IMG/VR virus record: IMGVR_UViG_2541047681_000007
Source: a virus
Lineage: Duplodnaviria; Heunggongvirae; Uroviricota; Caudoviricetes
DNA: 47,714 nucleotides
Strand: one strand, 5' to 3'
Below, piece after piece: positions 1-47,714 of this stretch (positions are counted from its first letter, which is position 1; the number at the start of each line of letters is the position of its first letter). The notes under the pieces were generated by a model, which ran no database searches, had not been told where the DNA came from, and saw only the letters and a program-made list of their open reading frames with translations. The translations under genes and the position numbers were made by a program.

Positions 1-1209
1 ATGTCGGTTTTTCATAACTGGCTGCTTGATATCGCAAGCGGGAATTACTTTATCTACATCAAACGCCTTTCTGCAAACGACACAGGCGCAACAGGTGGCC
101 ATCAGGTCGGACTTTATATCCCCTCAAATATCGTTGAAAAGCTTTTTCCATCTATCAATCATACTCGCGAACTGAACCCTTCAGTCTTCCTTACTGCGCA
201 TGTATCATCCCATGATTGCCCTGATACCCAAGCACGCGCAATTTATTACAACAACCGTTATTTTGGTAAGACCCGAAACGAAAAAAGAATTACGCGCTGG
301 GGGAGAGGAAGTCCATTACAGAACCCTGAAAATACAGGAGCCCTCACAATTCTTGCTTTCAGGTTAAACGAACAGAACACTGACTGTTCCGAGGTAGATA
401 TATGGGTCTGCGTCAATCCCGATGAAGAGGATATCATCGAGTCTGCTATTGGCGAAATCATACCTGGAACCCTAATTTCCGGCCCTGCTGGACAAATTTT
501 GGGCGGATTGTCTCTTCAGCAAACTCCAGTAAATCATAAATATGTTATTCCTGAAGACTGGAAGAAGCGTTTTCCTTCTGGAAACGAAATTATTCAATAT
601 GCTGCTGGCCATTATGCTAAAAACTCCAAGGATCCAGATGAGCAACTGATTGACCGTCGGCGTGTCGAGTATGATATTTTTCTACTCGTCGAGGAATTAC
701 ATGTTCTTGATATTATTAAGAAAGGATTCGATTCTGTAGATGAGTTTATTGCATTAGCCAACTCTGTCAGTAATCGACGTAAATCAAGGGCAGGCAAATC
801 ACTTGAACTTCACCTAGAGAAGCTTTTTATCGAGCACGGACTACGGCATTTCTCCACTCAGGCAGTTACTGAAGGTAATAAAAAACCAGATTTCCTGTTT
901 CCTTCAGCAGAGGCATATCATAACGTTGAATTTCCTGTAGAAAACTTACGTATGCTGGCAGTAAAGACCACCTGCAAAGATCGCTGGCGTCAGATACTGA
1001 ATGAAGCAGATAAAATCCATCAGGTACATTTATTTACACTGCAAGAAGGTGTTTCTTCAGCACAATACCGAGAAATGAAAGATGCGGGTGTCAGACTCGT
1101 TGTACCATCAACTTTACATAAAAAATACCCAGAAGCAGTTAGAGAAGAATTAATAACGCTCGGAGCATTCATTACTGAGCTGATAGAGCTTTACGCTGAA
1201 CTATCATAG
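1..1209 (+). CDS. ecoRIIR: Type IIE restriction endonuclease, EcoRII-like
   Basis: 402 aa ORF starting at window position 1; N-terminus MSVFHNWLL...YIKRLSANDTGATGGHQVGLYIP and overall length match my recollection of EcoRII (about 404 aa); convergent with a Dcm-type methyltransferase. Confidence 0.75.
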   Translation: MSVFHNWLLDIASGNYFIYIKRLSANDTGATGGHQVGLYIPSNIVEKLFPSINHTRELNPSVFLTAHVSSHDCPDTQARAIYYNNRYFGKTRNEKRITRWGRGSPLQNPENTGALTILAFRLNEQNTDCSEVDIWVCVNPDEEDIIESAIGEIIPGTLISGPAGQILGGLSLQQTPVNHKYVIPEDWKKRFPSGNEIIQYAAGHYAKNSKDPDEQLIDRRRVEYDIFLLVEELHVLDIIKKGFDSVDEFIALANSVSNRRKSRAGKSLELHLEKLFIEHGLRHFSTQAVTEGNKKPDFLFPSAEAYHNVEFPVENLRMLAVKTTCKDRWRQILNEADKIHQVHLFTLQEGVSSAQYREMKDAGVRLVVPSTLHKKYPEAVREELITLGAFITELIELYAELS

Positions 1210-1243
1210 GCTGACTCCCGGCTTAAAAGGCCGGGAGATGTTC

Positions 1244-2677
1244 TCAAGGCTGCCCAGTCTTACCAGCATCAGCAGAAACAGCTTTGAGGATATAGGGTTC
1301 CAGAAGTCTGGCAACAGCTTCAAATACTGGCACCACAACTGAGTTACCGAACTGCCGATATGACTGAGTATCTGAAACCGGAATACGGAATGGTTTCCCT
1401 CCAGGTTTTTCAAATCCCATAAGGCGTGCGCACTCTCGGGGAGTCAGCCTGCGTGGTCGACGAGCCTGATTACTCTCATTCATAAAGTCAGCCTCTCCCG
1501 TTGCCATATCCCAACCACGATCAATAAGAATTTCTGATCCGTCTTTGTGATATCTGGCAGAAAGTGTGCGTGCAATGCTTTCCTTATTCTCAGGATTGAC
1601 CAACCCAAAGCCAAAACCATTCCCCTTGGCTGCATGCTTTTTGGCGTAGTTATAAAGGTACTCCCATAGTTTTGGCGTAAGTATATATTTACTGTCGACT
1701 ACAGGCTCCAGCAATTCACCAAATGATGGGCGGTGTTCCGGATAAAAACGACTGATATCACGCAAGGTAAACCCCTTGTGAATATTCAGATCTCGTCTAA
1801 ATCCGACCAGAACAATGCGTTCACGATGCTGAGGCAAAAAATGCTTCCCATCGATAATCTTTGGATCGTTTTTTCCCATTTCTGCAGCATCGGCAACTTC
1901 GTAGCCCAGCTCGTCAAGGGTCTCCATAATGACTTTGAAAGTTTTACCCTTATCATGGCTCTTCAGATTTTTGACATTTTCCAGCACAAAAATTGCCGGT
2001 TTTTTTGCTCGTATAATACGTGCCACGTCAAAAAAAAGTGTTCCTTGTGCTTCACATTCAAAACCATGCGCACGACCAAGTGAGTTTTTCTTACTAACAC
2101 CAGCAAGGCTAAATGGCTGGCACGGGAACCCCGCAAGAAGCACATCATGATCCGGCACATGCTCATCAATATATGCATAAGCATCCGTTTCCAATACATC
2201 GGTTTTATCACTCAGCGTGACTTCCCGAATATCGAGATTGAATTTATGCACCTGTTCATCGTTAAACCAGTTGGCCTTGTATGTACGCACAGCATCTTTA
2301 TTCCATTCACTGGTAAAAACACACTGGCCTCCAATGGCCTCAAAACCTTTCCGTATCCCTCCAATTCCAGCAAATAAGTCAATGAAGCGGAAAGCATATT
2401 CTGGATGGTTTGCAGGTGGTTCTGGTAGCATCTTACGCAGAAGAGACTCTTCTACTGAAGTCAACGATTTTGGTAAACACTTGCCATTAATCCAGCGGTT
2501 AATGGTTTCACGGCTCCACTCATTTTTTCCGACTTTTCTCAGTAATTCAGCCACATACTTCTGATCATAGATTTCCAGCACTTTCTCGATAAGCTTTTTA
2601 TCATTTTCCTGTCGCAGCTTTTCTTCCGCCTCGGCTTCCTTCAGCAGATGCTGTGCCAACACTTCAAATTCAGACAT
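1244..2677 (-). CDS. dcm: DNA (cytosine-5)-methyltransferase, Dcm / M.EcoRII-like
   Basis: C5-MTase motifs [11 protein letters not shown] (motif I), [11 protein letters not shown] (PCQ, motif IV), ENVKNL (motif VI), [10 protein letters not shown] (motif X); ORF extends to 2719 but the ATG at 2677 (MSEFEVLAQ...) is preceded by GGAGG and gives 477 aa. Confidence 0.85.
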
Positions 2678-3038
2678 AATTCCTCCAAGGGGTCTAATGG
2701 GTGAAACTTTATCACTCATTCAACCCAGAAGGAAATGTTTTATCTGGATATTTAAACAGTGACTACAACGTAATCTAGCACTGGTGATGCTTTGTTAGGC
2801 ATAGAGAATCATTCTATATACGACTAATGACAGAAAAACAGCAGACAAGTAGTTTGTTCATAAATTAACGCATACTATGTGTCTACGGTTTTCGAGACCG
2901 GTCCAATCATCAAACGAAACATAAAATTAGCTCACATTATGAGGAAAAGTATCTTTTTTGTACTATGTAAATTCAAAGGCTTAGCCTCATTTCTCCGATG
3001 GTTTTCTCAATACTACTGGTTGTGAGCCCTTGCAATGA

Positions 3039-3857
<819 letters not shown>

Positions 3858-3878
3858 GTCTTTAAGTGATAAGCATAA

Positions 3879-3925
3879 ACCGCAGCACGTCATGCATACG
3901 TCGTGTCTGCGGTTTTTCTTTTTTG
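3879..3925 (+). terminator. Rho-independent terminator after the GIY-YIG gene
   Basis: inverted repeat ACCGCAG...CTGCGGT followed by TTTTTCTTTTTT. Confidence 0.5.
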
Positions 3926-3926
3926 C

Positions 3927-4511
3927 TTACACGGTGTCTGGTTCTTCTGGCCACTCAATATCCGGTGCAGTTGTTGTATTAACACGGTTCAGCAACACCC
4001 GATATTTTTTCCAGGCTTCCAGCAATGAGGTTTCTTCCTCCGTTGCGATCTCCAGATCTACAGCATCCTGAAGTGGCGCTATATGCTCACTGGCTACCTG
4101 CATCAGGCTGTTTTTTGTTTCTTCCGCCTCCCGGATCCGGAACAGTTTTTCTGCTTCCGTATCCTTCACCCAGGCTGTGCCGTTCCACTTCTGATATTCC
4201 CCTTCCGGCGATAACCAGGTGACATTTTCCGGTAACGAGCCAAGTTCAGAAATAAATAACGCGTCGCCGGAAGCCACGTCATAGACGGTTTTTCCCCGAT
4301 GATCTTCAACGAGATGCCACGATGCCTCATCACTGTTGAAAACAGCCACAAAGCCAGCCGGAATATCTGGCGGTGCAATATCGGTACTGTTTGCTGGCAG
4401 ACCTGTATGAGGCGGAATATATGCGTCACCTTCACCAATAAATTCATTAGTTCCGGCCAGCAGATTATAAATTTTTATGGTCCGTGGTTGTTCACTCATT
4501 CTGAATGCCAT
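3927..4511 (-). CDS. tfa: Tail fiber assembly protein Tfa
   Basis: 194 aa, [51 protein letters not shown] typical lambdoid Tfa; start overlaps stf stop. Confidence 0.85.
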
Positions 4512-7500
4512 TATGCAAGCCTCACAATATAGTTAAATGCGATGTTTTTGACGGTGTTTTCCGCGTTACCAGCAGCGTTAACGGTGATGGTGTGTCCATG
4601 TGAACCAATCGCAACGGAGTGCGTGTGTGCACCAATACCGACAGTATGTGCGTGTGCACCTGCAGATGCTGCTGTGCCGGACAGTGAGTGGCTATGGTTA
4701 CCATCTGTACTGGTATTAGCTAACGCCCCCGTAGACATACCTACTGAGCCTTGTACACCCCAGGTATTTTGACCTGAGCTTGTATAACCATATTGATAAG
4801 TATCTTTAAAAACACTGGGGTTAAATCGACGGCCATCTCTATGGCTGTGATTACCAGCTGCATTCGTGCTGCCACTTAAACTATGGGTATGCGCACCAGT
4901 GTTATTCGTGGATTTAGTGCCGTAATCAAACGACGATGTGGTTTTCGTCCCCAAATCAGTACTGGATGCGCTGGCGCTGTGGGTATGCGATTTTATGCCG
5001 TCCTGTTCCTGAGACAATACGGCACGACCACTGGCGGGCTTGCCCTTAATCGTCCAGCCACGCATATCAGGGATCACGCCTGACGGATAAGCGGCTGCAA
5101 GTTTCGGGTAGGCAGATTTGTCAAAAGTCTGCCCCTGCATCAGGGCATAACCAGACGGAACGGTATCTGATGGCCACGGGATTGGTGCGCCGACTGGGTA
5201 GCTTTCTGGTGGAAGATTTTTCGAGGTATAAACTTCTGCCCAGTCTTCCTCAAAACCATAACCGTCTCTTGAAGAACGGTAGAACAGACCACCATTTCTG
5301 TAATGCGCCTTCATCTGCAAGGTCCGGCAACTTCCGACTCCGGTATAGAAGTTAACCAGAATATAGCTGTCGCCAGAGCGGGTGACATTATAAGCGCCTG
5401 ATTCGGCATTCCAGGGAACGCCACCATCCGCATCGGCATATGTATCCGTTGCCCTTCTGGCAAAAGCAGCCACATGCGCGGCGGTTAAAGTAATATCTTT
5501 GGAACCATCAAACTCAACACCAGAAACCCGTCTTGGCGTTTGCAGCTTTGTTGCTGTTAATGCATTACCGTTCAGACTTGCGGACAGTTTGGTTCCAATA
5601 ACCAGTTCGCCGGTTGCGTTATCAATAGCAAACGGTCTTAATGTATTCCAGCCACCATAAACATCACCTTGATTGGTAAGCAGCAGGTAAGTTTTAGCGC
5701 CATCATTACGCCATAATGCCCCATACTCCCCACCTATCATTCGAATCTGATTACCACCACGCGCTACAATTTCGTCTGTGGCAAAAAGTTTTTTGCACGA
5801 CAAGTTATCGTTAACGATTAACGAATGAGACTCATAAAAACCACGCCCACTCTTAAAATCAAGGATAACGTCCGCCGCGATACATTCAGTCGCCGGATTT
5901 GTTGCCCCAAACTTATAGGTCGTATCATTAACAACGAGATCAGCACCAGGTGCGGATATTGACAGGCCATCTTCGATAAACGCAAAAACAGGGAAAGCTG
6001 CGCCATCAACATAGAACACAGAGCGCAAATCATCGCCCTTATTACTCATCATTATTGAGTGGATGGCTCGTTCATTGTTTTGATATTGCCAGAACATGCC
6101 ATAAGCATAACGCCCCCTGTCAGTCCAGCCGCCAGGCATAACAAATCCGTTAAACTCGCAGTTATTCATCGGATCGCCTGCGGTTCGCGTTGCCGTGGTG
6201 ATAATGACCCTTGATGCCAGTTCGCTTACTGAGCCAGCAGAACGCATAACAACAACAGGGTAATATTTTCCAGATGTTGCACCTGCAGGAGCGTTAACCC
6301 GCACATAACGCATACCACGCTTATCAGCAAAGTCTGTTTTACTGACCGCGTTAATGTTGTTCAGGAAGCGTCCCTTATCGGGTATATCAGCGCCGTTCTG
6401 GTCTTTCTGCAGACGTTTCTCTGCATTGTCATAGGCTGATTTTACTGCCTTTGGCGTTGCCGCCAGCGTTTCAGACGTACTGTTGGTCGCACTGCTTAGC
6501 TGAACTATCCCTTTCTGTGCTGTCGTTGCATCCTGTGCGGTGTATTTCCCGTTAGCCAGGTCATACGCGGCCTTAACGGCTTTTGGTGTTGCCGCCAGTG
6601 ACTCGGAAGTGCTGTTAGTCGCACTACTGAGCTGTACTATCCCCTTTTTCGTCGTGCTCGCATCCTCAAGCGCCACGGCGGATGCAATATCCTCTGCCCG
6701 TTTTGCCGCTGTCTCAGCGCGCGTTGCCGCGGATTCCGCCGTACTTTTGCTCTGTGCTGCCGCCGTCGCACTGCCAGCTGCCTCTGTCGCCTTCGTGGAT
6801 GCTGTCGTGGCGCTGCCCTTCGCTGCTGACGCCTGTCTGGTCGCCTCATCTTTTGAAGCAGACGCCGATGATGCCGATGACGCCGCCGAACTGGCTGACG
6901 ATGCGGCAGCCGTTTTTGAGGATTCTGCACGGGTTTCCGACGCTTTTGCGTTCGTTTCGGATGTCTTCGCTGCGGAAGCAGACCTCGCTGCTGCCGTGGC
7001 CTGCTCAGTGGCTTCGCCAGCCTTCGTTGTGGCTGTTGAAGCAGACGATGCGGCACTTTCTGCCGACTTTCCGGCAGCGGTGGCACTGGCTGAGGCCTGC
7101 CCGGCACTTGTTGACGCGGCGCTGGCAGATGATGCAGCCGCTGTTTTTGAGCCTGCCGCAGCCGAGGCGCTCTGTCCCGCTGCCGTTTCAGAAGACCTGG
7201 CGTTCGTCTCGGACGTTTTTGCCGCCTTCGCGGAATTTCCTGCCGCCGTTGCCGAGGAAGCGGCACTACTGGCGCTTGATGATGCGTTCGTTTCTGATGA
7301 TTTCGCTGCCTCTTTTGAGGCCGCCGCATCCCGGGCTGAGGTGGCAGCTTCTGACGCTTTCGTGGTCGCGGTGGATGCAGAAGTGGCTGCAGATTTTTGT
7401 GACGCTGCAGCATTCGTTTCTGACGTTTTCGCCGCACCGGCACTGGTAGCCGCCGCGCTTTTTGAGGACTCTGCAGCGGCAGCACTTTTTGATGCTTCAG

Positions 7501-8041
7501 TAGCCTTTGTTGATGCCGTTCCTGCGCTGGAAGACGCTGACTGAGCCGACGACGCGGCCTGTCCGGCTGACGTGCTGGCTGCGCGTGCTGAGCCTGCAGC
7601 ATCAGTCGCATGGGTTGCCGCCTCACGGGCTGATGTGCTGGCATCGCTGGCTGACTTCTTCGCGGCTGCCGTGTTCTGTGCCACGGCGGACGCGTTACGC
7701 GCCACCTCTTCCACCATCAGTTCAAAACGGCGCAGTGCCTCAGGACGGGCATCATCCTCCGTCATGGCACCGAGAAAATCATTCAGCGTACCGGGTCGGG
7801 AATCTTCATACACGGTGATGGTCCCGGCATGTGACGGCGGGAATCCTTCCACCAACAGAATAACGCTGTACTGACCGTACTCAACGTCCATGCTGTAACG
7901 CCCGGCCTCATCCGGATTTTCTGAGGCCAGCGTGTTCACCACCACCGTGGTGCTGTTACGTTTTGCTTTCAGCTGGATTGTGCAGTTCTGTACCGGTTTT
8001 CCTGTGCCGTCTTTCAGTACACCTGAAATCTTTACTGCCAT
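4511..8041 (-). CDS. stf: Side tail fiber protein Stf (long form)
   Basis: N-terminus [26 protein letters not shown] and C-terminus [31 protein letters not shown] match lambda Stf; long Ala/Ser/Thr-rich repeat region; ORF track starts 2 codons earlier at 8047. Confidence 0.85.
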
Positions 8042-8052
8042 ATTCACCCCAC

Positions 8053-8078
8053 AAAAAAGCCCGCCTGAAACGGCGGGC
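8053..8078 (-). terminator. Putative intrinsic terminator downstream of lom
   Basis: hairpin GCCCGCC-loop-GGCGGGC followed by a T-run on the minus strand. Confidence 0.4.
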
Positions 8079-8105
8079 TGTCATAACACTGTGTTACCTG
8101 GCTAA

Positions 8106-8705
8106 TCAGAACTTATAACCGACACCCACGATGAAACCGTCAGTGCGCCAGTCGCCACTGCCGGAACCTTCATAAGCGACATCAATGGCCACGGACTCGG
8201 TCGGGTTAAACTGCACGCCAGCTCCCCACGCCAGAGACGTGTTGCTGTGGCGACCGTCATCACTTCCGGTCAGCACATCGTGCGTTTTCCCCTTGTTGTC
8301 AGTTACGCGGATATAATCTCCGGAGAAAGTCGAAACACGGCTGTAAGCCATACCCGCCATCGCATACGCGCTGAACCATTCATTCACGCGCACAGACGGC
8401 CCCGCCATCACGCTGAACCAGCGGTTACGCACGGAATCCTCATGCCAGCGGGTATCGCTGTAATGCGTTTTTTGCTCATCTTCAGCGTTGGCATAACTGA
8501 ATGACGTAATCAGCCCCAGCGTGTCCGTAAACTCATAACGGTATTTCACGTTAATCCCGTTCAGATTATCGCTGCCGGGAGCGTTCGTACGGGCATGAAG
8601 ATACCCTGCGCTCAGTGTGGCCGGCTGCTCAGACGCCCATGCAGGCGCACCGGATACGGCCAGACAGATGGCTGCGGACAAAATGGCTACACAAACTTTA
8701 CGCAT
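8106..8705 (-). CDS. lom: Outer membrane protein Lom (Ail/Lom family)
   Basis: 199 aa with signal peptide MRKVCVAILSAAICLAVSGAPAWA and C-terminal ...GFIVGVGYKF, near identical in pattern to lambda Lom. Confidence 0.85.
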   Translation of the reverse strand: MRKVCVAILSAAICLAVSGAPAWASEQPATLSAGYLHARTNAPGSDNLNGINVKYRYEFTDTLGLITSFSYANAEDEQKTHYSDTRWHEDSVRNRWFSVMAGPSVRVNEWFSAYAMAGMAYSRVSTFSGDYIRVTDNKGKTHDVLTGSDDGRHSNTSLAWGAGVQFNPTESVAIDVAYEGSGSGDWRTDGFIVGVGYKF

Positions 8706-8726
8706 AATTACCTCTCGCTTTTCTGC

Positions 8727-8753
8727 AATAAAAAAGGCGCCATTTCTGGCGCC
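8727..8753 (-). terminator. Putative intrinsic terminator downstream of J
   Basis: GGCGCCA-loop-TGGCGCC hairpin followed by a U-run on the minus strand. Confidence 0.4.
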
Positions 8754-8772
8754 CGTATATGGGTTATAAAAT

Positions 8773-11700
8773 TCAGCTGATACTGATGCCTGCGGTGGCT
8801 TTCTTCATCACCACAACCAGCAAATCGCTGATACTTGCTGTGGGATACCAGTCATTTACCAGCCATGATGACACCGAAAACTCCAGCGTCATATGGCCGC
8901 GACCAGCTGGCATATCAATAACACCACTGTAAATCAGCGTATTATCCAGCGCGGTACGGTTATAAATTTCAGCACCGTTTTTCCGTACTATCAGGCGGCA
9001 TGACGAATAAATATCGTTATTCTCCCGCTCATGTTTAGCGCCGCTGAATGCCACCGCCGGAATAACAATCTGCCGGTCAAACGGCTGATCGTCATAAACC
9101 CTGACGGTGATGGTCCCTGATGGCCACCGTTCCGGTGCACGGGAGTCCCGGGGGAAAGCTTTGCCCACTGTTTTAACGAGATCGCCTTCAATCTGGTTGG
9201 CGGACAGTTTTCCCAGAACCCGACAGTTCTCGTTAATCGTGACGTTGTTGAGCGTCCCGGAGTTCGCATTCACGTTACCGCTGATATCGGCATTTTTCGC
9301 CGTCAGCCGCCCGTCCGGTGTCAGGGAAAATACCGGAGGATTACCGCCGCTGGTAATGGTGGGAGCCGTCAGGCGTTTCAGGAACACTTCGTTCATGAAT
9401 ATCTGATCGCCCTGCCCAACAAACATCGGCTTTGTGTTGCCATTCGCAGGATTAATCATCGCAATCCTGTCTGCCGCCAGCAGCACCTGACTCTGCATGC
9501 CGTCAGGGGTGTTCTCAATACCGGCACCAATACCCGCGATATAAAGGCGTCCGTCCTGCATCTGCTGCAGCTTCACAGCCCACATGCTGTTCAGGTTATT
9601 ATTTGTATCAACCTGAACCTTCTGTATCTGCTGAATCGCTGCACTCTGGTCTTCCAGTTTCTTATTGACGGTCTGCGTGATTTCATTGCTGACATCCGTA
9701 ATGGACGTCCTGATTTCAGCCAGGTCAGGCGCAAGCTGACCGTTATCAATCTGCGTCCACAGCTCCTGAGCCAGGTGTGTTTTCCCTATCTCTCCTTTGA
9801 AAAAATCCAGATAGCCGGATGCATCATCACTCGGCTGACCAACAGCCTCCACGAATGTCGATTTGCCAACGGTATTCACACTGCGAACGTAAAAATAATA
9901 ATCATGGCCCGGCCTGATATTGATACTGGCGGCTATCCAGTACAGCGCCGTACCAAGATAACGCGCGCTGGTTTCAACCTGCCTGATATCCGCAATCCGC
10001 GTTTCCGAGAACCAGAACTCAAACTGTACCGTCGGATCATAAACCGCAAGATGCGGCGTGGCGGTTATCTGAAAATAGCCCGGCGTCAGCTCAATCTGTG
10101 ACGGCGCTGCCGGTGCGGCAATCCGGAACGATACCGATGCCGGATCGCCCTGCTGCCCCCACGCATTTACTGCCCGGACTGTCAGCCTGTAGTTTCCTGG
10201 CGCCAGTTGTGTGAAGCGGTATGTGGTTTCCGTCGTCCGGGCCGTGCTGACCAGCCGCTCACTGCCGTCGTCCGCTGTTACGGTCAGACGGAGCAGGAAG
10301 CTCACGCCCTTCACCACCTTCGGAGTGTCCCATCGCGCCAGCACCTGATATTCCCCGCTGTCTGCAGTGACTTCGGCGGTCAGGTGCTGCACCGCTGGCG
10401 GCGTGACACCGTTCACCGTGCCACTCTGTTCGCCGTCAAAGTGCGCCCCGTTATCCACGATGGCCTCTTTTTCCGGTACATGCTGCACGGCGGTGATGGC
10501 ATACGTGCCGTCGTCGTTCTCACGGATACTCACGCAGCGGAACAGGCGCTGGCGCAACGTCGGCAGCTTCAGCCCCCATACGCTGTATTCAGCAACGCCG
10601 TCAGGAACACGGCTCACTTTCACCTTCACGCCGTCGGTGACGGACTGAACCTCCACGCTGACCGGACTCCCCTGCCCGTCAACCAGGCTTATCAGCGTGG
10701 TGCCGGAAGATGGCAGCGTGATTTCACGGTCGAGCGTCAGCGTCCGGGTCTGGCTGTTTACCGCCAGCACGCGCCCGCCGGTGCGGATACCGGCATAGTC
10801 ATCATCGCAGATTTCAATGACATCGCCCGGTACATGGCGAAGCCCTTCGGCACCCACGCTGAAGTCCACGGTCTGCGTTTCCAGCAGTTCTGTTTTAATC
10901 AGCCACAGCCCGGCGCGGTGTGCCTGCCCCCGGCTGGTACAGCCAAAGGCATCCATCTTCGTGACATTACGACCGTAACGGGCAATGGCCTGCGTATCTT
11001 CAACAAGCTCTGTCGCCGTCTCCCAGCCGTTGTTCGGGTCAATCCAGTTCACCTCAACGGCATTATGGCGGTCCTTCAGGGCGCTGAAGCTGTAGCGGAA
11101 CGGCGCGCCATCATCCGGCATCACCACATTACTGCGGTTATAGGTCCACACCTTATCTGATGGCCGGTCCTGCACGAACGTCAGCGTCTGCCCGTTCCAT
11201 ACCGGCATACAGCGCATCGCCGAGCAGAAATCACTGAGCACATCCCACGCCTTACGCTGTGTGGTCAGCCAGGCATTACAGGTGATGCGCGGCTCCGTGC
11301 CACCAAATCCATCCGGCACCGACTGGTCGCAATTCTGGCCGATGACATACAGCGCCCATTTATCCACATCCGCTGCACCAAGACGTTTCCCCATGCCGTA
11401 ACGCGGGTGGGTCAGCATATCCCACAGACACCAGGCCATGTTGTTGCTGTATGCCGGTTTTAACGTTCCGTCCCAGATACCGCTGTATTGCCGCGTCTGC
11501 GGGTTATAGTTCGACGGCACCTGCAGAATGCGCCCGCGAAGATGATAATTACGGCTCACCTGCTGGCTGCCGAACTGCTCCGAATCCACCTGCACGCCGA
11601 CCAGTGCCGTGTTCGGGTAGCACTGTTTCACATCGATGATTTCGGTGTATGACGACCAGAGCGTTTTGTTCTGCAGCTGGTCTGTGGTGCTGTCCGGCGT

Positions 11701-12252
11701 CATCCTGCGCATCCGTATATTGAACGGGCGCGGCGGCAGGTTACCCACCACCACCGAGGCCAGATACTGCGAGGTGGTTTTGCCCTTAATGGTGATGTCT
11801 TTTTCCGTCACCCAGCCACCATTACGCTGGATCTGAACCAGCAGGCGGACTTCCGACGGATTCCTGTCCCCCTTTGAGGTGGTTTCCACCAGTGCCTGCA
11901 CGCCGAAGGTAAAACGCAGTCGGTCAATGTTTGCCGACGTGATGGTCCGGGTGATCGGCGTGTCGTATTTCACTTCCGTACCCAGCACCGTCTCGGAGCC
12001 AGAGGATTCAAATCCCTCCGGCGGTGTCTGCTCCTGCTCACCGGCCCGGAACACCACCGTGACGCCGGAGATATTGGTATTCCCCTCACTGTCCAGCACT
12101 GGCGTACTGTTCAGCAGCACGCTTTTTAATCCATCCACCGGACCTTCAATCGGCCCTTCGCTGATGGCATCGATCACACTCAGCAACTGCGTGGACTTCA
12201 GGTTGTCCTTCGCTTCGCGCGGGGTATGCCCCTTACTGCTGCCTTTACCCAT
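8773..12252 (-). CDS. J: Tail tip host specificity protein J
   Basis: 1159 aa; N-terminus [53 protein letters not shown] as in lambda J. Confidence 0.9.
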
Positions 12253-12312
12253 TCCTCACGCTCCATAAACGACAAAACCGCCCGGAGGCGGTTTCACATA
12301 AAACATTTTGCA

Positions 12313-12960
12313 TCAGCGACCAATCACCACAACCTGACCACCATCCCCTTCGTCTGCCGTGCTGATCTCCTGAGAAACCACACGTGACCCCACGCGCATT
12401 TCACCGTACAGAACAGGCAGAACATTGCCCTGGGCAACCATGTTATCCAGTGAGGAGAAATAGGTGTTCTGTTTGCCGTTATCTGTACTGGCTGCCGTGG
12501 GCGTCCTGGCTTTCGGTGCCAGCATCTGCGCCACTCCGCCCAGGATCATACTGGCCCCTGCCGCATACATGCCCGATACAGCCGCGGCCCCCAGCCAGCC
12601 CACAGGGTTCCACCATGCCACCGCAATCAGCGCCGCCCCAAGCACCACCTGAAACACACCGCCACTTTTAGCTCCCGCCAGACGCGGCACGATGTGGATC
12701 ACGGCACCATTTGCCAGCGGCTCATTAAGACGGGCAGATAATTCATTTTCGCCTGCATCACGCCCGGCAATGCGCACCTGATACCAGCCCTCATTCAGTT
12801 TCTGACGAAACACCGGGAGCTGTGTGGCCAGTGCCCGGATGGCTTCAGCCCCCGTTTTCACACGAAGGTCGATACGGCGACCAAATCGTTGCAAATCCCC
12901 GTAAAGGCAGATGCGTGCCATGCCCGGTGACGCCAGAGGGAGTGTGTGCGTCGCTGCCAT
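12313..12960 (-). CDS. I: Tail assembly protein I
   Basis: MAATHTLPLASPGMARICLYGDLQRFGRRIDLRVKTGAEAIRALATQLP matches lambda I; overlaps K as in lambda. Confidence 0.85.
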   Translation of the reverse strand: MAATHTLPLASPGMARICLYGDLQRFGRRIDLRVKTGAEAIRALATQLPVFRQKLNEGWYQVRIAGRDAGENELSARLNEPLANGAVIHIVPRLAGAKSGGVFQVVLGAALIAVAWWNPVGWLGAAAVSGMYAAGASMILGGVAQMLAPKARTPTAASTDNGKQNTYFSSLDNMVAQGNVLPVLYGEMRVGSRVVSQEISTADEGDGGQVVVIGR

Positions 12961-13610
12961 TTGTCGGTGTACCTCTCTCGTTTACTCAGTTGTTCAGGAA
13001 TATGGTGCAGCAGCTCGCCGTCGCCACAGTAAATGGCGGCATGATTCGGCACCGATGAACCAAAACAGCACAGCAGCACGTCGCCAGGCTGCGCCTCTGT
13101 CAGTGGGACACGGTAAAAACCCGTTGCCTCCATATTGTCAAGATAGAGATTCTGGCCGTGACGCCACCAGTCATCCCCGCGATGCAAATCCGGCATCTCA
13201 ATTCCCGCCAGATGGTAAGCGTCCCGGAACAGCGTGTAACAGTCCGTCACCCCGTGCTCAAAGCGCCGCCCGGTGAGATGCGGCACACAGCGGAATTTAT
13301 GAATCGCCCCCCGGCAGACCAGCCACCACGGCAAATCACTCTGCACCTGCAGCCGCCGGTCGGCCTCACTCAGCCAGGGCAGACCACCGGGGTGGCTGTG
13401 GACCAGCGCCACAATCTCTCCCTGCATTTCTGCACTCAGCCAGTCCTCCGGCGACATCCGGAAATACGCCTCCGGCTCACCAGAGATATTCACGCAGGGA
13501 AAATATCTTTCCCCCTCCGGTGTTCTCACCACGAAGCCGCACGACTCCGCTGGCGCACATCGCCGGGCATGCGCCAGAATCGCTGATTCTGTCTCTGTCA
13601 TGGGATTCAC
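12858..13610 (-). CDS. K: Tail assembly protein K (JAB/MPN plus NlpC/P60 domains)
   Basis: HSHPGG (JAMM-like) motif and C-terminal Cys/His peptidase region; ATGA start/stop overlap with L. Confidence 0.85.
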   Translation of the reverse strand: MNPMTETESAILAHARRCAPAESCGFVVRTPEGERYFPCVNISGEPEAYFRMSPEDWLSAEMQGEIVALVHSHPGGLPWLSEADRRLQVQSDLPWWLVCRGAIHKFRCVPHLTGRRFEHGVTDCYTLFRDAYHLAGIEMPDLHRGDDWWRHGQNLYLDNMEATGFYRVPLTEAQPGDVLLCCFGSSVPNHAAIYCGDGELLHHIPEQLSKRERYTDKWQRRTHSLWRHRAWHASAFTGICNDLVAVSTFV

Positions 13611-14305
13611 TGCGAAAGTTTGTTAATGGAAAGGAAGCCGCCAAAGTTGCCGACGTTATTGCGAAACTTACAGCCGCTCAGGCATTTGCTGCATTTATCC
13701 TTCGTGATATCGGACGTCGGCTGATCATATTCATCCGCGACCGCCGGACCGTGATAACCGCACTCGTCACCGCGATAGGTCCAGGTGCAGGTGTTGGCCA
13801 GCATGATACGTCCCGGAAAAACGGCACCGTCCGTTTCCGTCGGCGTGGACAGTACAAAAGAGGCACTCACCGCGCTCAGTTCGCTGCACTGCTCGATGCG
13901 CCAGCGGCTAATCACCTCCTGCTCCGGATCGGCGTCACTGTTTCCGTTGACGAAGTTCACCGCATCCAGAAAACGGGCGTAAACCTTACGCCGGACCACC
14001 GTTCCGCCGACCAGACTCTGCAGGTCTTCCGCCATCCCGGTGACCATGCCGTGCAGGTTAGAAACCGTCAGTGTCGGACGGGCAGCACTGCCCTTGCCAT
14101 TCAGTTCAAATCCCGTCCCCTGAATGGGGTATGCCTGATACTGCCGCCCCTGCCAGGTAACCGGCTCACCTTTTTCGTTCTGCTCATTACAGAAAAAATA
14201 ACGTTCACCACCGACCTCTGTCAGATCGATTTCCCAGAGCACCACCTGGGCTGACTGAGTGAGGCGTGTCGTCTCATGATGTGTTTCCTGTGGAATATCC
14301 TGCAT
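13607..14305 (-). CDS. L: Minor tail protein L
   Basis: 232 aa, same length as lambda L, conserved Cys cluster (CTWTYRGDECGY...CSKCLSGC). Confidence 0.85.
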   Translation of the reverse strand: MQDIPQETHHETTRLTQSAQVVLWEIDLTEVGGERYFFCNEQNEKGEPVTWQGRQYQAYPIQGTGFELNGKGSAARPTLTVSNLHGMVTGMAEDLQSLVGGTVVRRKVYARFLDAVNFVNGNSDADPEQEVISRWRIEQCSELSAVSASFVLSTPTETDGAVFPGRIMLANTCTWTYRGDECGYHGPAVADEYDQPTSDITKDKCSKCLSGCKFRNNVGNFGGFLSINKLSQ

Positions 14306-39293: not shown

Positions 39294-39986
39294 ATGAACA
39301 TAGGAAACCGAGTCAGACAACTTCGCCAGGCGAAGAACATGAAAATCGCCGATCTCGCTGAAGCAATAGGAGTGGATGCGGCGAATATCTCACGCCTGGA
39401 AACAGGTAAGCAGAAACAATTCACTGAACAAGCCCTGAGTAATATTGCCAAGAGCTTAGGTGTTGATATTGCTGATCTCTTTACCTCAGACTTCAAAAGT
39501 AATACTGTATGTAAAAACAGTATTAGTGAGGATGTTGCGCAGGTGAAGGATGTATTCCGTATTGAAATGCTGGATGTCAGTGCCAGTGCGGGAAATGGCC
39601 TTATCCAGGGCGGTGATGTCATTGATGTGATTCATGCCATTGAATACAGAACTGATAATGCTGTATCGATGTTTGGCGGACGGCCAGCCAATCACATTAA
39701 AGTTATCAACGTTCGTGGGGACAGTATGTGTCCAACCATTGAGCCAGGAGATCTCATCTTCGTTGATGTCAGTATCAATCAGTTTGATGGAGATGGTATC
39801 TATGTATTTGGTTTTGATGATAAAATTTATGTCAAACGACTGCAAATGATACCTGACAAACTACTGGTGATTTCTGATAACCAGATTTACCGTGAATGGG
39901 GAATTACCAGCGAAAATGAACACCGGTTTATGGTCTTTGGAAAGGTCTTAATCAGCCAGTCACAAACCCTTAAGCGACACAATTAA
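39294..39986 (+). CDS. cI: CI-type prophage repressor (HTH plus S24 LexA-like peptidase domain)
   Basis: N-terminal HTH (MKIADLAEAIGVDAANISRLETGKQ), C-terminal S24 domain with GDSM serine motif and downstream Lys (VKRL). Confidence 0.85.
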   Translation: MNIGNRVRQLRQAKNMKIADLAEAIGVDAANISRLETGKQKQFTEQALSNIAKSLGVDIADLFTSDFKSNTVCKNSISEDVAQVKDVFRIEMLDVSASAGNGLIQGGDVIDVIHAIEYRTDNAVSMFGGRPANHIKVINVRGDSMCPTIEPGDLIFVDVSINQFDGDGIYVFGFDDKIYVKRLQMIPDKLLVISDNQIYREWGITSENEHRFMVFGKVLISQSQTLKRHN

Positions 39987-43609: not shown

Positions 43610-43816
43610 ATGCTGAACCTCGATTGTGTTCCTATCTCAACTTATTGCAAAGAAACTGGCGAAACTCCTGAAGCAATAAACAAACGTGTACAGCGCGGTG
43701 TTTGGCGTGAAGGTGTTCAGGTTTTAAAGGTTGAAGGCGTTAAGGAGAGGTGGATTGATCTTAGTGAGGTTGCAAAATGGGCCAGACAAAACTGCTCAAA
43801 CTACCGCGCGGCGTAA
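43610..43816 (+). CDS. xis: Excisionase-like DNA-binding protein (Xis/AlpA-type)
   Basis: small basic protein immediately upstream of and overlapping int; GGAG 6 nt upstream of ATG at 43610; ORF track starts at 43571. Confidence 0.5.
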   Translation: MLNLDCVPISTYCKETGETPEAINKRVQRGVWREGVQVLKVEGVKERWIDLSEVAKWARQNCSNYRAA

Positions 43817-44943
43817 CAATCAGGAAACACCGCCAGGGAGAAACGATCAATATAACTTTCACCTACAAAGGAGTTAGATGTCGTGAGCCGCTTTCCAATC
43901 TGGAAGTAACACCAAAGAACATTAAATACGCCGAGCGTACACTCGGCGAAATCCATAATAAGATCGAAAGGGGAACATTCATTTATGCAGAATATTTTCC
44001 CCGTTCTGCTCGTTTAAAAATTTTTGGTAATGCTGCTGCAGGCAAAACGGTAAAGATGTACCTGGACGAATATCTTGAAATCTGCGAAACAAGAAAACTT
44101 TCACCCTCTACGATTGGTGGCTATAAAAAATGCCGTAGTGCGTTAGCCTCACTTCACATTTGCCCTGCAAGTGAATTAACACCAGCAACCCTGAAAGCGT
44201 GGATTCAAAGCCAGAAAACAACCTTAAAAACCATTCGCAACCAGTTATCTTTCCTGCGGTCAGCACTTGATGAAGCCGTGACCGATGGGGTACTTCAAAT
44301 TAACCCCGTATCGTTAGTAACAGCTTCGCGCTACCAAAGTGATAAGTCAGAAGCAGAAAGCAGCTATGTGGTTGATCCGCTATCACCAGCAGAAGTTGAT
44401 GCATTACTAGCAGCAGCCGGAAACAAACAATGGGAAAATCTGTTCCGGTTCGCCATACATACAGGCCTGCGTAGTTCTGAATTATGTGCCCTACGATGGC
44501 ATGATATCGACTTTGTTGGAAAAACAGCCCATGTTCAGAGCGCAAGTGTTGTCGGAGTTATCAAAGGAACAAAGACAAAAGCCGGTACCCGTAAAGTTGA
44601 ACTGACTGAAGAAGCAATGTTGGCGTTGATAAACCAGAAGCCATTTACATTCATGAAGGATGCTACTGTCTTTGAAGATCCAAAGACCAATAAACCCTGG
44701 GCAAGTGCTGATGCAATTAGGAAAAAAGCATGGGTGCCAACATTGCGAAAAGCAGGTATTCGTTACAGAAACCCATATCAAACCAGGCATACATTCGCCA
44801 CCAGCCATATCAGCCGGGGAGCAAACCTGTTTTGGCTTGCAGCTCAAATGGGGCATAAAGGGCCTGAGATGCTTTTCAGGCACTATGGCTCATATCTGAA
44901 GGAATATGATGGACAAACAAGCTTGAAGAAGATAACAATATAA
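43777..44943 (+). CDS. int: Tyrosine integrase (phage integrase family)
   Basis: 388 aa; catalytic-region motifs RHTFATSH and LFRHYGSY (R...HxxR...Y), N-terminal arm-binding-like domain. Confidence 0.85.
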   Translation: MGQTKLLKLPRGVTIRKHRQGETINITFTYKGVRCREPLSNLEVTPKNIKYAERTLGEIHNKIERGTFIYAEYFPRSARLKIFGNAAAGKTVKMYLDEYLEICETRKLSPSTIGGYKKCRSALASLHICPASELTPATLKAWIQSQKTTLKTIRNQLSFLRSALDEAVTDGVLQINPVSLVTASRYQSDKSEAESSYVVDPLSPAEVDALLAAAGNKQWENLFRFAIHTGLRSSELCALRWHDIDFVGKTAHVQSASVVGVIKGTKTKAGTRKVELTEEAMLALINQKPFTFMKDATVFEDPKTNKPWASADAIRKKAWVPTLRKAGIRYRNPYQTRHTFATSHISRGANLFWLAAQMGHKGPEMLFRHYGSYLKEYDGQTSLKKITI

Positions 44944-44959
44944 TCCAAGCATGAAACTA

Positions 44960-44985
44960 TTGGCCACAATTTGTGGCCATTTTAC
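44960..44985 (+). terminator. Hairpin terminator downstream of int
   Basis: TTGGCCACAA-T-TTGTGGCCA perfect inverted repeat followed by TTTTAC. Confidence 0.5.
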
Positions 44986-45001
44986 GGAGCAAGATAGAAA
45001 C

Positions 45002-46814: not shown

Positions 46815-47714
46815 ATGCGTTTTAACACCCCACTTCGCTATCCTGGCGGTAAAGGCAAGCTTGCAAATTTCATGCTTCGGCTTATTGAAGAAAATAATCT
46901 TTCGCCTATACATTATGCCGAACCATATGCTGGGGGTGCTGGTTTAGCATTGAAACTGTTACATCTAAATGCAGCTGAAAAAATCATCCTTAATGATATT
47001 AATATTTCTGTTTATGCTTTTTGGCACAGTGTATTAAATCATGCAGATCAATTATGTTCTTTAATTGAAAGAACTGAAGTTACAATGGATGAATGGTTTA
47101 GGCAGAAAGATATAATTAATAATCCTAAAGACCATGATCTTTTAACAATTGGTTTCTCAACCTTTTTTCTCAATAGAACAAATCGCTCTGGAATATTAAA
47201 AGGTGGAGTAATTGGCGGTAAAAATCAAGAAGGGAAATGGAAGCTTGACGCTCGCTATAATAAGAGTGATTTGATTTCTCGAATCCATAAAATATCAGAA
47301 AATCGTCACAGAATAGATTTATATAACATGGATGCAATTGATTTCATTAAAAAAATAGTTATTCAATTGCCACAAAACTCATTAACATATTTGGATCCAC
47401 CTTATTACATAAAAGGTAAAGGTTTATATATCAACCATTATAATCATGATGATCATGTTAGGGTTGCAAAAGTCGTACAGAATAATATTAAAACACCTTG
47501 GATTGTTTCTTACGATAACACTCCTGAGATCCAAGCTATGTATAAGACATCATCATTAGTATATGGAATAAACTACAGTGCTCAAGATCGGTACAAAGGA
47601 TCTGAGGTAATGTTCTTCAGTGAACGATTGAAAATCTTTAAAACAGATGATCCAACTAAGGTAAAAGCGCCTGTATTTAAAAGAGGATGTGTTGACGACC
47701 ACATCCAGACATAA
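46815..47714 (+). CDS. Dam-like DNA N6-adenine methyltransferase (D12 class)
   Basis: N-terminal YPGGKGKL and EPYAGGAGLAL (AdoMet binding), FFLNRTNRSG, catalytic DPPYY; stop codon is the last three bases of the window. Confidence 0.75.
   Translation: MRFNTPLRYPGGKGKLANFMLRLIEENNLSPIHYAEPYAGGAGLALKLLHLNAAEKIILNDINISVYAFWHSVLNHADQLCSLIERTEVTMDEWFRQKDIINNPKDHDLLTIGFSTFFLNRTNRSGILKGGVIGGKNQEGKWKLDARYNKSDLISRIHKISENRHRIDLYNMDAIDFIKKIVIQLPQNSLTYLDPPYYIKGKGLYINHYNHDDHVRVAKVVQNNIKTPWIVSYDNTPEIQAMYKTSSLVYGINYSAQDRYKGSEVMFFSERLKIFKTDDPTKVKAPVFKRGCVDDHIQT

What the first reader, a model, noticed from the sequence alone, without database searches (positions are those of the whole stretch)
1..2677. EcoRII-like Type IIE restriction-modification system carried next to the prophage tail-fiber end
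Convergent REase and Dcm-type MTase separated by a 34 bp hairpin-containing spacer. This R-M pair sits in the phage accessory region (or immediately flanking it), suggesting phage-mediated carriage of restriction functions and self-methylation at CCWGG.
Basis: partly seen in the sequence, partly recalled or inferred. Interest (0 to 1): 0.45.

Follow-up and report, generated by a model that had tools for sequence, protein, structure and literature searches.

The report
EcoRII-type restriction-modification pair in prophage cargo
The first 2.7 kb of the window encode an intact, close relative of the classical EcoRII restriction enzyme and its CCWGG cytosine methylase, carried as cargo inside a lambda-like prophage; it is real but an ordinary, already catalogued kind of system.

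Summary
A 402-aa EcoRII homologue lies at 1-1209 (+) and a 477-aa Dcm/M.EcoRII-type C5 methylase at 1244-2677 (-). They converge on a 34-bp spacer with a GC-rich stem-loop.

The proteins are 86% and 90% identical to IncN-plasmid EcoRII. All 29 published catalytic and DNA-recognition residues of R.EcoRII are conserved, as are the six C5-methylase motifs checked. dN/dS against the plasmid allele is 0.05 for R and 0.03 for M, so both genes look functional. This is not chromosomal dcm: that gene is only 69% nt identical, and no vsr follows M.

The pair lies inside the prophage. In near-identical relatives (E. coli H1, NADC1036) the REase start is 234 bp after ssrA, and a 28-bp repeat of the ssrA 3' end recurs 46.4 kb away, just beyond the window's last gene. 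About 260 of 5426 complete E. coli genomes carry this junction.

The next gene (3084-3857) is CMoRE/PD-T4-3, a type IV nuclease for hydroxymethyl- and glucosyl-hydroxymethylcytosine DNA. R, M and CMoRE recur together in two other genomic contexts, one of them clearly a different prophage backbone. In this window an IS21-family insertion splits the prophage terminase gene.

Novelty and interest are low.

The parts
1..1209 (+). EcoRII-type restriction endonuclease gene (402 aa as called; 404 aa if the in-frame ATG 6 nt upstream of the window is used). N-terminal B3-like effector domain about aa 1-170, C-terminal PD-(D/E)XK catalytic domain about aa 171-402.
   Evidence: Pfam EcoRII-N plus EcoRII-C. 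PDB 1NA6 E = 1.3e-242 over the full length. 86% aa identity to IncN-plasmid EcoRII. 29 of 29 published functional residues conserved. dN/dS 0.049 against the plasmid allele. PADLOC REase_II 1.5e-233.
1210..1243 (.). 34-bp convergent intergenic spacer with a GC-rich stem-loop (arms 1215-1222 and 1230-1237). Probably a shared 3'-end structure for both transcripts. It has no U-tract, so it is not a canonical intrinsic terminator.
   Evidence: Sequence. Centroid folds on both strands. The same stem arms occur in the 33-bp spacer of plasmid EcoRII although the rest of the spacer differs. Not called by the terminator scan.
1244..2677 (-). M.EcoRII/Dcm-type DNA (cytosine-5) methyltransferase gene (477 aa) with an N-terminal regulatory HTH domain (aa 28-84).
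   Evidence: Pfam DNA_methylase plus DNA_meth_N. NCBIfam PRK10458 'DNA cytosine methylase', 927 bits. 90% aa identity to IncN M.EcoRII and motifs I, IV, VI, VIII, IX, X intact. PDB 3ME5/3LX6, E = 4e-209. dN/dS 0.033.
2678..2775 (-). Upstream control region of the methylase gene, about 95 bp including the Shine-Dalgarno GGAGG. It is conserved with the plasmid EcoRII cassette and is the probable promoter and autorepression site of M.
   Evidence: The alignment with the IncN cassette is near-identical for about 93 bp upstream of the ATG and then breaks. Autorepression by M.EcoRII is taken from the literature (Som & Friedman 1994, as summarised in PMC12707154).
2776..2884 (.). AT-rich junction (35% GC) that fuses the R-M module to the CMoRE module. 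It is identical in all three genomic contexts that carry the three-gene cassette.
   Evidence: Alignment A4; GC content.
3084..3857 (+). [quoted passage not shown] It travels with the R-M pair.
   Evidence: PADLOC PD-T4-3 7.6e-140, full length. PDB 9U75 E = 5.1e-171 and 9U7U E = 1.6e-150. Function from PMC12923530. Co-occurrence.

Best explanation
Window 1-2775 is a complete, self-contained EcoRII-type Type IIP/IIE restriction-modification module specific for CCWGG. It is a diverged allele of the classical IncN-plasmid EcoRII system (about 80% nt, 86% and 90% aa identity).

How it works (inferred by homology). The methylase uses SAM and the PCQ-motif cysteine to place a 5-methyl group on the inner cytosine of CCWGG, and its N-terminal HTH domain represses its own promoter. 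The endonuclease is a dimer whose N-terminal B3-like domains block the catalytic C-terminal core. When the N-domains bind further unmethylated CCWGG copies, autoinhibition is relieved. The C-domain dimer then flips the central A:T pair and cuts before the first C. DNA with a single or widely spaced site, or with C5-methylated sites, is spared.

Where it sits (shown by comparison with complete genomes). The module is cargo of a 46.4-kb lambda-like prophage integrated in the 3' end of the tmRNA gene ssrA. It occupies the variable slot between attL and the tail-fibre assembly gene, which corresponds to lambda's b region. It is fused to the type IV nuclease CMoRE.

Role (inferred). In the lysogen it restricts incoming DNA that lacks CCWGG methylation. 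Almost all E. coli already carry Dcm, so its targets are mostly DNA made in Dcm-negative hosts, and its potential to addict the host to the prophage is blunted.
For: Identity and integrity:
- Domain architecture and full-length match to the solved EcoRII structure.
- 86% and 90% aa identity to IncN EcoRII R and M, with the same convergent layout and a 33/34-bp hairpin spacer.
- All catalytic, CC:GG-readout, base-pocket and effector-domain contact residues listed in PMC2770665 are conserved, and the methylase motifs are intact.
- dN/dS is 0.05 for R (both domains) and 0.03 for M at dS of about 1.7.
- The exact R protein occurs on at least 1000 public contigs.

Self-contained module:
- Homology to the plasmid cassette runs from about 60 bp upstream of R to about 93 bp upstream of M and then stops.
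- GC is 43% against 51% for the prophage body.

Inside the prophage:
- In E. coli H1 and NADC1036 a 28-bp exact direct repeat of the ssrA 3' end flanks 46,398 and 46,428 bp respectively.
- The window aligns collinearly with H1 from the first gene after attL to the last gene before attR.
- In NADC1036 the second repeat is followed by another (P4-type) integrase, so the islands at ssrA are in tandem.
- In strain Esc22 the same slot of a related prophage holds RnlAB instead.

Distribution:
- The ssrA-REase junction is found in 261 of 5426 genomes.

Context for function:
- dcm-like sequence is present in 5367 of 5426 genomes, and a carrier listed in the search (strain M10) holds two copies.
- The window has 104 CCWGG sites with a median spacing of 348 bp, so the prophage itself needs protection.
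- Dcm is reported to attenuate EcoRII post-segregational killing (PMC3874152).
Against: - No biochemical or methylome data: the CCWGG specificity, the activity of R and its expression in the lysogen all rest on homology.
- The window contains neither att site nor the R promoter, so prophage membership is shown in near-identical relatives (97-99% identity), not in the source genome itself.
- No deposited phage genome among 50,697 carries this R gene, so transfer as a virion has not been documented.
- In this window an IS21-family insertion splits the terminase large subunit.
- In a second prophage context (strain AH02) both R and M are annotated as frameshifted, so decay does occur.
- The spacer hairpin is not statistically exceptional and lacks a U-tract.
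Confidence: 0.87

Rival explanations
1. The pair acts mainly as a selfish addiction (post-segregational killing) module that stabilises the prophage, rather than as a defence of the lysogen.
For: EcoRII is an established model for post-segregational killing (PMC3874152). The module sits next to the att site of a mobile element and recurs in three genomic contexts, at least two of them distinct prophages.
Against: Chromosomal Dcm methylates the same sites and is reported to attenuate killing after loss of EcoRII (PMC3874152). dcm-like sequence is present in 5367 of 5426 genomes, and a carrier listed in the search (strain M10) holds both copies. Addiction should therefore be weak in the actual hosts. 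The fusion to a dedicated anti-phage nuclease (CMoRE) and the alternative occupant RnlAB suggest a defence slot.
Confidence: 0.12
2. The R-M genes are not phage cargo. They belong to a chromosomal island at ssrA that merely abuts the tail-fibre end of the prophage.
For: The window has no att site. The 155 bp after ssrA, including a terminator hairpin, is also found next to ypjA in genomes without the prophage.
Against: The only copy of the ssrA 3'-end core apart from ssrA itself lies beyond int and its cargo genes, 46.4 kb away, in two genomes. In NADC1036 that copy is followed by the integrase of the next island. The 155-bp arm next to the intact ssrA must therefore have come in with the prophage. 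The same R-M-CMoRE cassette sits between int and the tail-fibre genes of an unrelated dusA-integrated prophage.
Confidence: 0.04
3. The endonuclease is inactive or has changed specificity, leaving in effect an orphan, phage-borne Dcm-like methylase that protects phage DNA from the EcoRII systems widespread on plasmids.
For: Plasmid EcoRII is very common: 1946 plasmid records hold at least 80% of the cassette. A phage-borne methylase would therefore be useful. R and M are frameshifted in one other genome.
Against: 29 of 29 functional residues are conserved, and dN/dS is 0.05 in both R domains at near-saturated dS. The exact R protein is on at least 1000 contigs. Host Dcm already supplies the protective methylation.
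Confidence: 0.04

Closest known systems
EcoRII restriction-modification system of IncN and related plasmids (R.EcoRII PDB 1NA6, 3HQF, 3HQG; M.EcoRII)
   Same: Same two genes in the same convergent order, with a 33/34-bp spacer carrying the same stem arms. The M control region and about 60 bp upstream of R are conserved. Sizes match (402/404 aa and 477 aa). All functional residues are conserved.
   Different: About 20% nucleotide divergence (dS about 1.7), with 86% and 90% aa identity. Carried by a prophage at ssrA rather than by a conjugative plasmid. Fused to CMoRE on the M side.
Chromosomal dcm-vsr locus of E. coli
   Same: The methylase belongs to the same subfamily (NCBIfam PRK10458, 927 bits) and presumably has the same CCWGG target.
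   Different: Only 69% nt identity, and a separate locus present as a second copy in a carrier genome checked (strain M10). Here M is paired with a REase, and no vsr overlaps or follows it: the sequence downstream of M is the hairpin and the 3' end of R.
EcoRII-C/Vsr/methylase module of Burkholderia phage KL3 (PMC3091744)
   Same: A temperate-phage-borne restriction-modification module of the EcoRII family predicted to target CCWGG.
   Different: KL3's nuclease is described through its EcoRII-C domain only. Its genes are co-directional and a vsr lies between them. The window has the full two-domain EcoRII, convergent genes and no vsr.
Prophage-encoded defence hotspots (for example the systems of Vassallo et al. 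2022, PMC9519451; PD-T4-3/CMoRE, PMC12923530)
   Same: Low-GC cargo genes occupy variable slots next to att and the tail-fibre genes, and alternative defence systems fill the same slot in related prophages (RnlAB in Esc22; three other genes in NADC1036).
   Different: Nothing mechanistically new. The specific linkage of EcoRII-type R-M with CMoRE was not mentioned in the papers I could read.

Membership tests
EcoRII family REase (Type IIP/IIE, CCWGG) | Two-domain architecture: an N-terminal B3-like effector domain (EcoRII-N) plus a C-terminal PD-(D/E)XK catalytic domain (EcoRII-C) | tested here: met
   Pfam PF09217 (3.9e-61, aa 16-163) and PF09019 (2.4e-71, aa 227-391). Full-length alignment to 1NA6.
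EcoRII family REase (Type IIP/IIE, CCWGG) | Active-site residues E271, D299, K324, E337 (EcoRII numbering) | tested here: met
   All four are present (window numbering is two lower). Residue list from PMC2770665.
EcoRII family REase (Type IIP/IIE, CCWGG) | Recognition residues: K328-D329-R330 and N260 (CC:GG readout); pocket R222, E225, Y226, F229, R265, A266; N-domain H36, Q37, N28, R98, Y85, R94, E96 | tested here: met
   All are identical. The N-arm (27-42) is 100% identical. The C-arm (78-101) has four substitutions, none at a contact residue (PMC2770665).
EcoRII family REase (Type IIP/IIE, CCWGG) | Cleavage needs two or more CCWGG copies (allosteric activation) and is blocked by C5 methylation of the inner C | not testable with these tools
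   This is a biochemical property, inferred from 86% identity and conserved residues only.
Type II R-M system | An adjacent cognate methyltransferase of matching specificity | tested here: met
   A C5 methylase lies 34 bp away, 90% identical to M.EcoRII (93.6% over aa 301-440), with all motifs checked intact. Specificity itself is inferred, not measured.
Methylase-autoregulated R-M (M.EcoRII / M.SsoII type) | N-terminal HTH domain on the methylase and a conserved operator upstream of its gene | tested here: inconclusive
   The DNA_meth_N domain is present (6.6e-27), and about 93 bp upstream of M are conserved with the plasmid cassette. The operator was not mapped here and repression was not tested.
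Chromosomal dcm-vsr | Orphan methylase with an overlapping downstream vsr, at the dcm locus | tested here: not met
   M is paired with R, no vsr follows it, it is 69% nt identical to dcm, and dcm is a second place in a carrier genome checked (strain M10).
Prophage cargo (moron / accessory-region gene) | Lies between the prophage att sites | tested here: met
   Shown in the relatives H1 and NADC1036: 28-bp direct repeats 46.4 kb apart enclose R-M through int and its cargo genes. Not testable in the window itself, which lacks both att sites.
Prophage cargo (moron / accessory-region gene) | Dispensable and variable: related prophages carry other genes in the slot; composition is atypical; the module has its own control regions | tested here: met
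   RnlAB occupies the slot in Esc22. GC is 43% against 51%. The module carries its own upstream regions, shared with the plasmid cassette.

The most novel reading that the evidence does not exclude
The EcoRII-type R-M and CMoRE may form one co-selected 'cytosine-state' defence cassette that moves as a unit between unrelated prophages. EcoRII would destroy DNA with unmodified CCWGG. CMoRE would destroy DNA in which cytosine is replaced by 5hmC or glucosyl-5hmC, the T-even way of escaping restriction. 5-methylcytosine, the cassette's own self mark, would be the only cytosine state that both nucleases tolerate.

The evidence is co-occurrence and shared junctions. About 93% of prophage-type EcoRII alleles have CMoRE next to them (244 genomes hold at least 80% of window 1-3900, against 263 records with the M allele at 99% identity or more). 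The M-CMoRE junction is identical in three genomic contexts: the ssrA lambdoid prophage, a dusA baseplate-type prophage, and a contig next to pinE. Against this, 838 genomes carry CMoRE in total, so most CMoRE genes occur without the R-M.

This evidence does not separate functional synergy from hitch-hiking after a single fusion event.
Probability: 0.3. Interest if true: 0.4.

Novelty: already known. Interest (0 to 1): 0.2.

Why it matters
Little is at stake scientifically. EcoRII is among the best-studied restriction enzymes, the exact protein is already in RefSeq on more than a thousand contigs, and phage-borne EcoRII-family modules have been described before.

Three modest points are useful:
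- This allele is an old (dS about 1.7) but strongly constrained lineage, found in about 5% of complete E. coli genomes.
- It is physically fused to the recently characterised hmC-specific nuclease CMoRE. This is a testable example of complementary defences packaged together on prophages, in hosts whose own Dcm makes the R-M half nearly redundant.

Tried and rejected
- I searched the window for a copy of the ssrA 3' end and found none. The window runs only from the first to the last gene between the att sites, so the boundaries had to be taken from complete-genome relatives.
- I tried to find an 'empty site' using the right flank of strain H1. The result was swamped by IS1 copies and was uninformative, except for locating the att repeat in NADC1036.
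- I searched 50,697 deposited phage genomes. None carries the REase; only distant methylase fragments matched.
- The consensus terminator scan does not call the spacer hairpin, and fold z-scores are weak. I therefore do not call it an intrinsic terminator.
- I considered that the 155 bp downstream of ssrA might be native chromosome, which would place R-M outside the phage. The tandem-island arrangement in NADC1036 rules this out.
- The AAA ATPase at 44951-46735 does not match PD-Lambda-5_A, although its methylase neighbour matches PD-Lambda-5_B. I did not file the pair as PD-lambda-5.
- ARAGORN finds no tRNA next to CMoRE in O157 or in the window. By eye, the sequence upstream of CMoRE resembles a fragment of a long-variable-arm tRNA.
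- One script failed because loci L004, L006 and L007 had not been copied to the script machine. I used DNA alignment instead.
- I ran no structure prediction or large protein searches. They are unnecessary at 86-90% identity to solved or characterised proteins.
Full report
**1. What is in the sequence.**
Window 1-1209 (+) is a 402-aa ORF and 1244-2677 (-) a 477-aa ORF. They converge on a 34-bp spacer, 1210-1243.

The first protein carries both Pfam EcoRII-N and EcoRII-C domains. The second carries DNA_methylase plus the DNA_meth_N regulatory domain. The REase aligns end to end with the solved EcoRII structure 1NA6 (E = 1.3e-242), and separately with the isolated N- and C-domain structures 3HQF and 3HQG. 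The methylase matches NCBIfam PRK10458 'DNA cytosine methylase' at 927 bits and PDB 3ME5/3LX6.

The spacer holds the stem CTCCCGGC/GCCGGGAG, which is the centroid fold on both strands. It has no U-tract, the terminator scan does not call it, and its energy is unremarkable against shuffles. The case for the stem is that the IncN EcoRII cassette keeps the same arms in an otherwise divergent 33-bp spacer.

**2. Are the genes intact, and is this really EcoRII?**
I compared the pair with the EcoRII genes of an IncN plasmid (pMTY13770_IncN, locus L003; R 404 aa, M 477 aa). R is 85.9% and M 90.4% identical in protein, and the DNA is about 80% identical along the whole cassette.

The structural paper on EcoRII (PMC2770665) lists these functional residues:
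- the active site: E271, D299, K324, E337;
- the CC:GG readout: K328-D329-R330 and N260;
- the pocket for the flipped central base: R222, E225, Y226, F229, R265, A266;
- the effector-domain base readout: H36, Q37, N28, R98, Y85, R94, E96;
- eight backbone contacts.

All 29 are identical in the window's protein. The six methylase motifs checked (I FAGIGG, IV PCQPFS, VI ENV, VIII QHRER, IX and X GNSV) are intact, and identity over residues 301-440 is 93.6%.

A Nei-Gojobori comparison with the plasmid allele gives dN/dS = 0.049 for R (0.064 in the N-domain, 0.039 in the C-domain) and 0.033 for M, at dS of about 1.7. This is an old lineage under strong purifying selection in both genes. The exact R protein sequence is on at least 1000 public contigs.

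The pair is also not chromosomal dcm. That gene is 69% nt identical and sits elsewhere. It is present in 5367 of 5426 complete genomes, and a carrier listed in the search (strain M10) has two places, one for each gene. No vsr follows M here.

**3. Extent of the module.**
Homology with the plasmid cassette starts about 60 bp upstream of the REase start. That position lies outside the window and was seen in relatives. Homology ends about 93 bp upstream of the methylase ATG, near window 2775. The module thus brings its own control regions.

The canonical EcoRII start codon is an in-frame ATG 6 nt upstream of window position 1. Some database entries use it and are 404 aa. GC content is 43% for the module against 51% for the prophage body.

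**4. Inside or outside the prophage?**
The window is a lambda-like prophage. Its genes include:
- tail-fibre assembly (3927-4511), side tail fibre (4511-8047), and Lom and J homologues by position matching the annotated relatives;
- tape measure, capsid, portal and terminase;
- lysis genes, Q, a CI-like repressor (39294-39986) and integrase (43777-44943).

It holds no att site. In complete genomes with 97-99% identical DNA (E. coli 2 HS-C, H1, NADC1036), the REase ATG lies 234 bp downstream of the tmRNA gene ssrA.

In H1 and NADC1036 the last 28 bp of ssrA (CGGGTTCAACTCCCGCCAGCTCCACCAA) recur exactly once, 46,398 and 46,428 bp further on. In H1 this is 79 bp after the Dam-like gene that ends the window. 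The window aligns collinearly with H1 from the first gene after attL to the last gene before attR.

In NADC1036 the second repeat is followed by a P4-type integrase, which belongs to the next island at ssrA. That tandem arrangement bears on the about 155 bp after the intact ssrA, which includes its terminator hairpin and is conserved in many genomes. This stretch must have come in with the phage, so R-M lies within the element.

Two further results support a swappable cargo slot between att and the tail-fibre genes. In strain Esc22 a related ssrA prophage carries the RnlAB toxin-antitoxin pair in exactly this slot. In strain 3150 ypjA follows the same 155 bp.

The ssrA-REase junction occurs in 261 of 5426 complete E. 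coli genomes. The methylase allele at 99% identity or more is in 263 records. At least 80% of window 1-3900 is in 244 genomes. No deposited phage genome carries the REase.

**5. The neighbours matter.**
The next gene (3084-3857) is a full-length match to PADLOC PD-T4-3 (7.6e-140) and to PDB 9U75/9U7U (5.1e-171 and 1.6e-150). This protein, renamed CMoRE, is a GIY-YIG type IV restriction enzyme. It degrades 5hmC and glucosyl-5hmC DNA but not DNA with C or 5mC (PMC12923530).

CMoRE occurs in 838 genomes, of which roughly 29% have the EcoRII-type pair beside it. About 93% of prophage-type EcoRII alleles have CMoRE beside them.

The M-CMoRE intergenic region, including an AT-rich junction at 2776-2884, is identical in three contexts:
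- the ssrA lambdoid prophage;
- a dusA-integrated prophage with baseplate genes in strain AH02, where R and M are annotated as frameshifted;
- a contig where the cassette abuts pinE.

O157:H7, which has CMoRE without the R-M, shares homology only from about 200 bp upstream of CMoRE. The three genes therefore arose from one fusion and have since moved between genomic contexts, at least two of them distinct prophage backbones.

On the other side of att, between int and attR, lie an ABC-type AAA ATPase and a Dam-like methylase. The methylase matches PD-Lambda-5_B (5.1e-124), and the pair has 33% GC. NADC1036 has three unrelated genes there. In the excised circular phage these two cargo regions would be contiguous around attP.

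**6. How it most likely works.**
Shown here: gene integrity, architecture, location, distribution and sequence constraint.

Inferred from the established biochemistry of EcoRII (PMC2770665; reviews PMC3874152 and PMC12707154):
- M methylates C5 of the inner cytosine of CCWGG and represses its own promoter through its N-terminal HTH domain.
- R is an autoinhibited dimer. It is activated when its N-domains bind additional unmethylated CCWGG sites, and it cleaves after flipping the central base pair.

The window has 104 CCWGG sites (2.2 per kb, median spacing 348 bp). This is not depleted relative to dinucleotide shuffles (83 +/- 9). Unmethylated, the prophage would therefore be a good substrate, and it depends on M or Dcm for protection.

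Since about 99% of E. coli genomes carry dcm, phage and plasmid DNA made in E. coli arrives already protected. The REase is then expected to act mainly on DNA from Dcm-negative sources. Its addiction potential is blunted, as shown for Dcm against EcoRII (PMC3874152). I rate 'functional CCWGG R-M carried as prophage cargo' at about 0.87. The defence role itself is inferred.

**7. Comparison with what is known, and novelty.**
The closest relative is plasmid EcoRII, with the same architecture and about 20% nucleotide divergence. Phage-borne modules of the EcoRII family have been described before, in Burkholderia phage KL3 (PMC3091744). Prophage defence hotspots are well established (PMC9519451).

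The protein is annotated in RefSeq as WP_000110239.1, 'type II restriction endonuclease'. I found no paper describing this ssrA-prophage allele or its linkage to CMoRE. Even so, nothing about it departs from the known kind, so I rate it already known and of low interest. The only mildly new angle is the fused R-M plus CMoRE cassette.

**8. Caveat for this particular copy.**
In the window the terminase large-subunit gene is split. The nuclease domain is at 24579-25886 and the ATPase domain at 28201-29094. Between them is a 2.4-kb IS21-family element (IstA-like 25898-27397, IstB 27394-28149; insertion about 25805-28214), which is absent from H1 and NADC1036. This copy of the prophage is probably unable to package DNA, so here the R-M is in effect a fixed chromosomal passenger.

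Noticed in passing
window 3084-3857 (+): The GIY-YIG gene next to the methylase is CMoRE / PD-T4-3, a recently characterised type IV restriction enzyme specific for 5hmC/glucosyl-5hmC DNA (PADLOC 7.6e-140; PDB 9U75 5.1e-171). It is compatible with 5mC and so with M.EcoRII-type methylation.
   Followed up: yes
window 1-3857; L009 (strain AH02) 2923-6774; L004 (NZ_CP104634.1) 8001-11854: R, M and CMoRE form one three-gene cassette with an identical M-CMoRE junction (window 2776-2884) in three contexts: the ssrA lambdoid prophage, a dusA baseplate-type prophage, and next to pinE. In AH02 both R and M are annotated as frameshifted.
   Followed up: partly
window about 25805-28214 (IstA-like 25898-27397, IstB 27394-28149); terminase halves 24579-25886 and 28201-29094 (-): An IS21-family insertion splits the terminase large-subunit gene (gpA nuclease and ATPase domains end up on separate ORFs). 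It is absent from the relatives H1 and NADC1036, whose flanks overlap by about 6 bp, which suggests a target-site duplication. This prophage copy is probably packaging-defective.
   Followed up: partly
window 44951-46735 (+) and 46815-47714 (+): A second low-GC (33%) cargo pair lies between int and attR. It consists of an ABC-type AAA ATPase (weak PtuA/AriA/GajA-like matches) and a Dam-like D12 methylase that matches PD-Lambda-5_B (5.1e-124). The ATPase does not match PD-Lambda-5_A, so this may be a variant ATPase-plus-methylase defence pair. NADC1036 has three different genes (hypothetical, STAS-like, hypothetical) in the same slot.
   Followed up: partly
L006 (strain Esc22) 9371-11534; L007 (strain 3150) 9231-13799: The slot between the ssrA-proximal 155-bp arm and the tail-fibre assembly gene holds RnlAB plus a pin-recombinase fragment in Esc22. 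In strain 3150 the same 155 bp are followed by ypjA and a pin fragment, which looks like the remnant of an older prophage of this family at ssrA.
   Followed up: partly
window about 2885-2905; L008 (O157:H7) about 5760-5830: The start of the CMoRE module (CGGTTTTCGAGACCGG...) continues in O157:H7 into sequence that by eye resembles the 3' part of a tRNA with a long variable arm, on the minus strand. This may be a fossil att site of another element. ARAGORN calls no tRNA in either place.
   Followed up: partly
window 31648-32490 (-): A further DNA methylase (Pfam N6_N4_Mtase, 4.3e-31) sits just upstream of the lysis genes. With M.EcoRII-type and the Dam-like gene, the window carries at least three methylase genes. 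Relatives also annotate a phage N-6-adenine methyltransferase in the early region.
   Followed up: no
window position 1 and 47714: Both window ends coincide with gene-call boundaries (REase ATG; the last base of the Dam-like ORF, which ends at its stop codon in relative H1). The window is exactly the gene content between attL and attR. The canonical EcoRII start ATG and the R promoter lie 6 to about 60 nt outside the left edge.
   Followed up: yes
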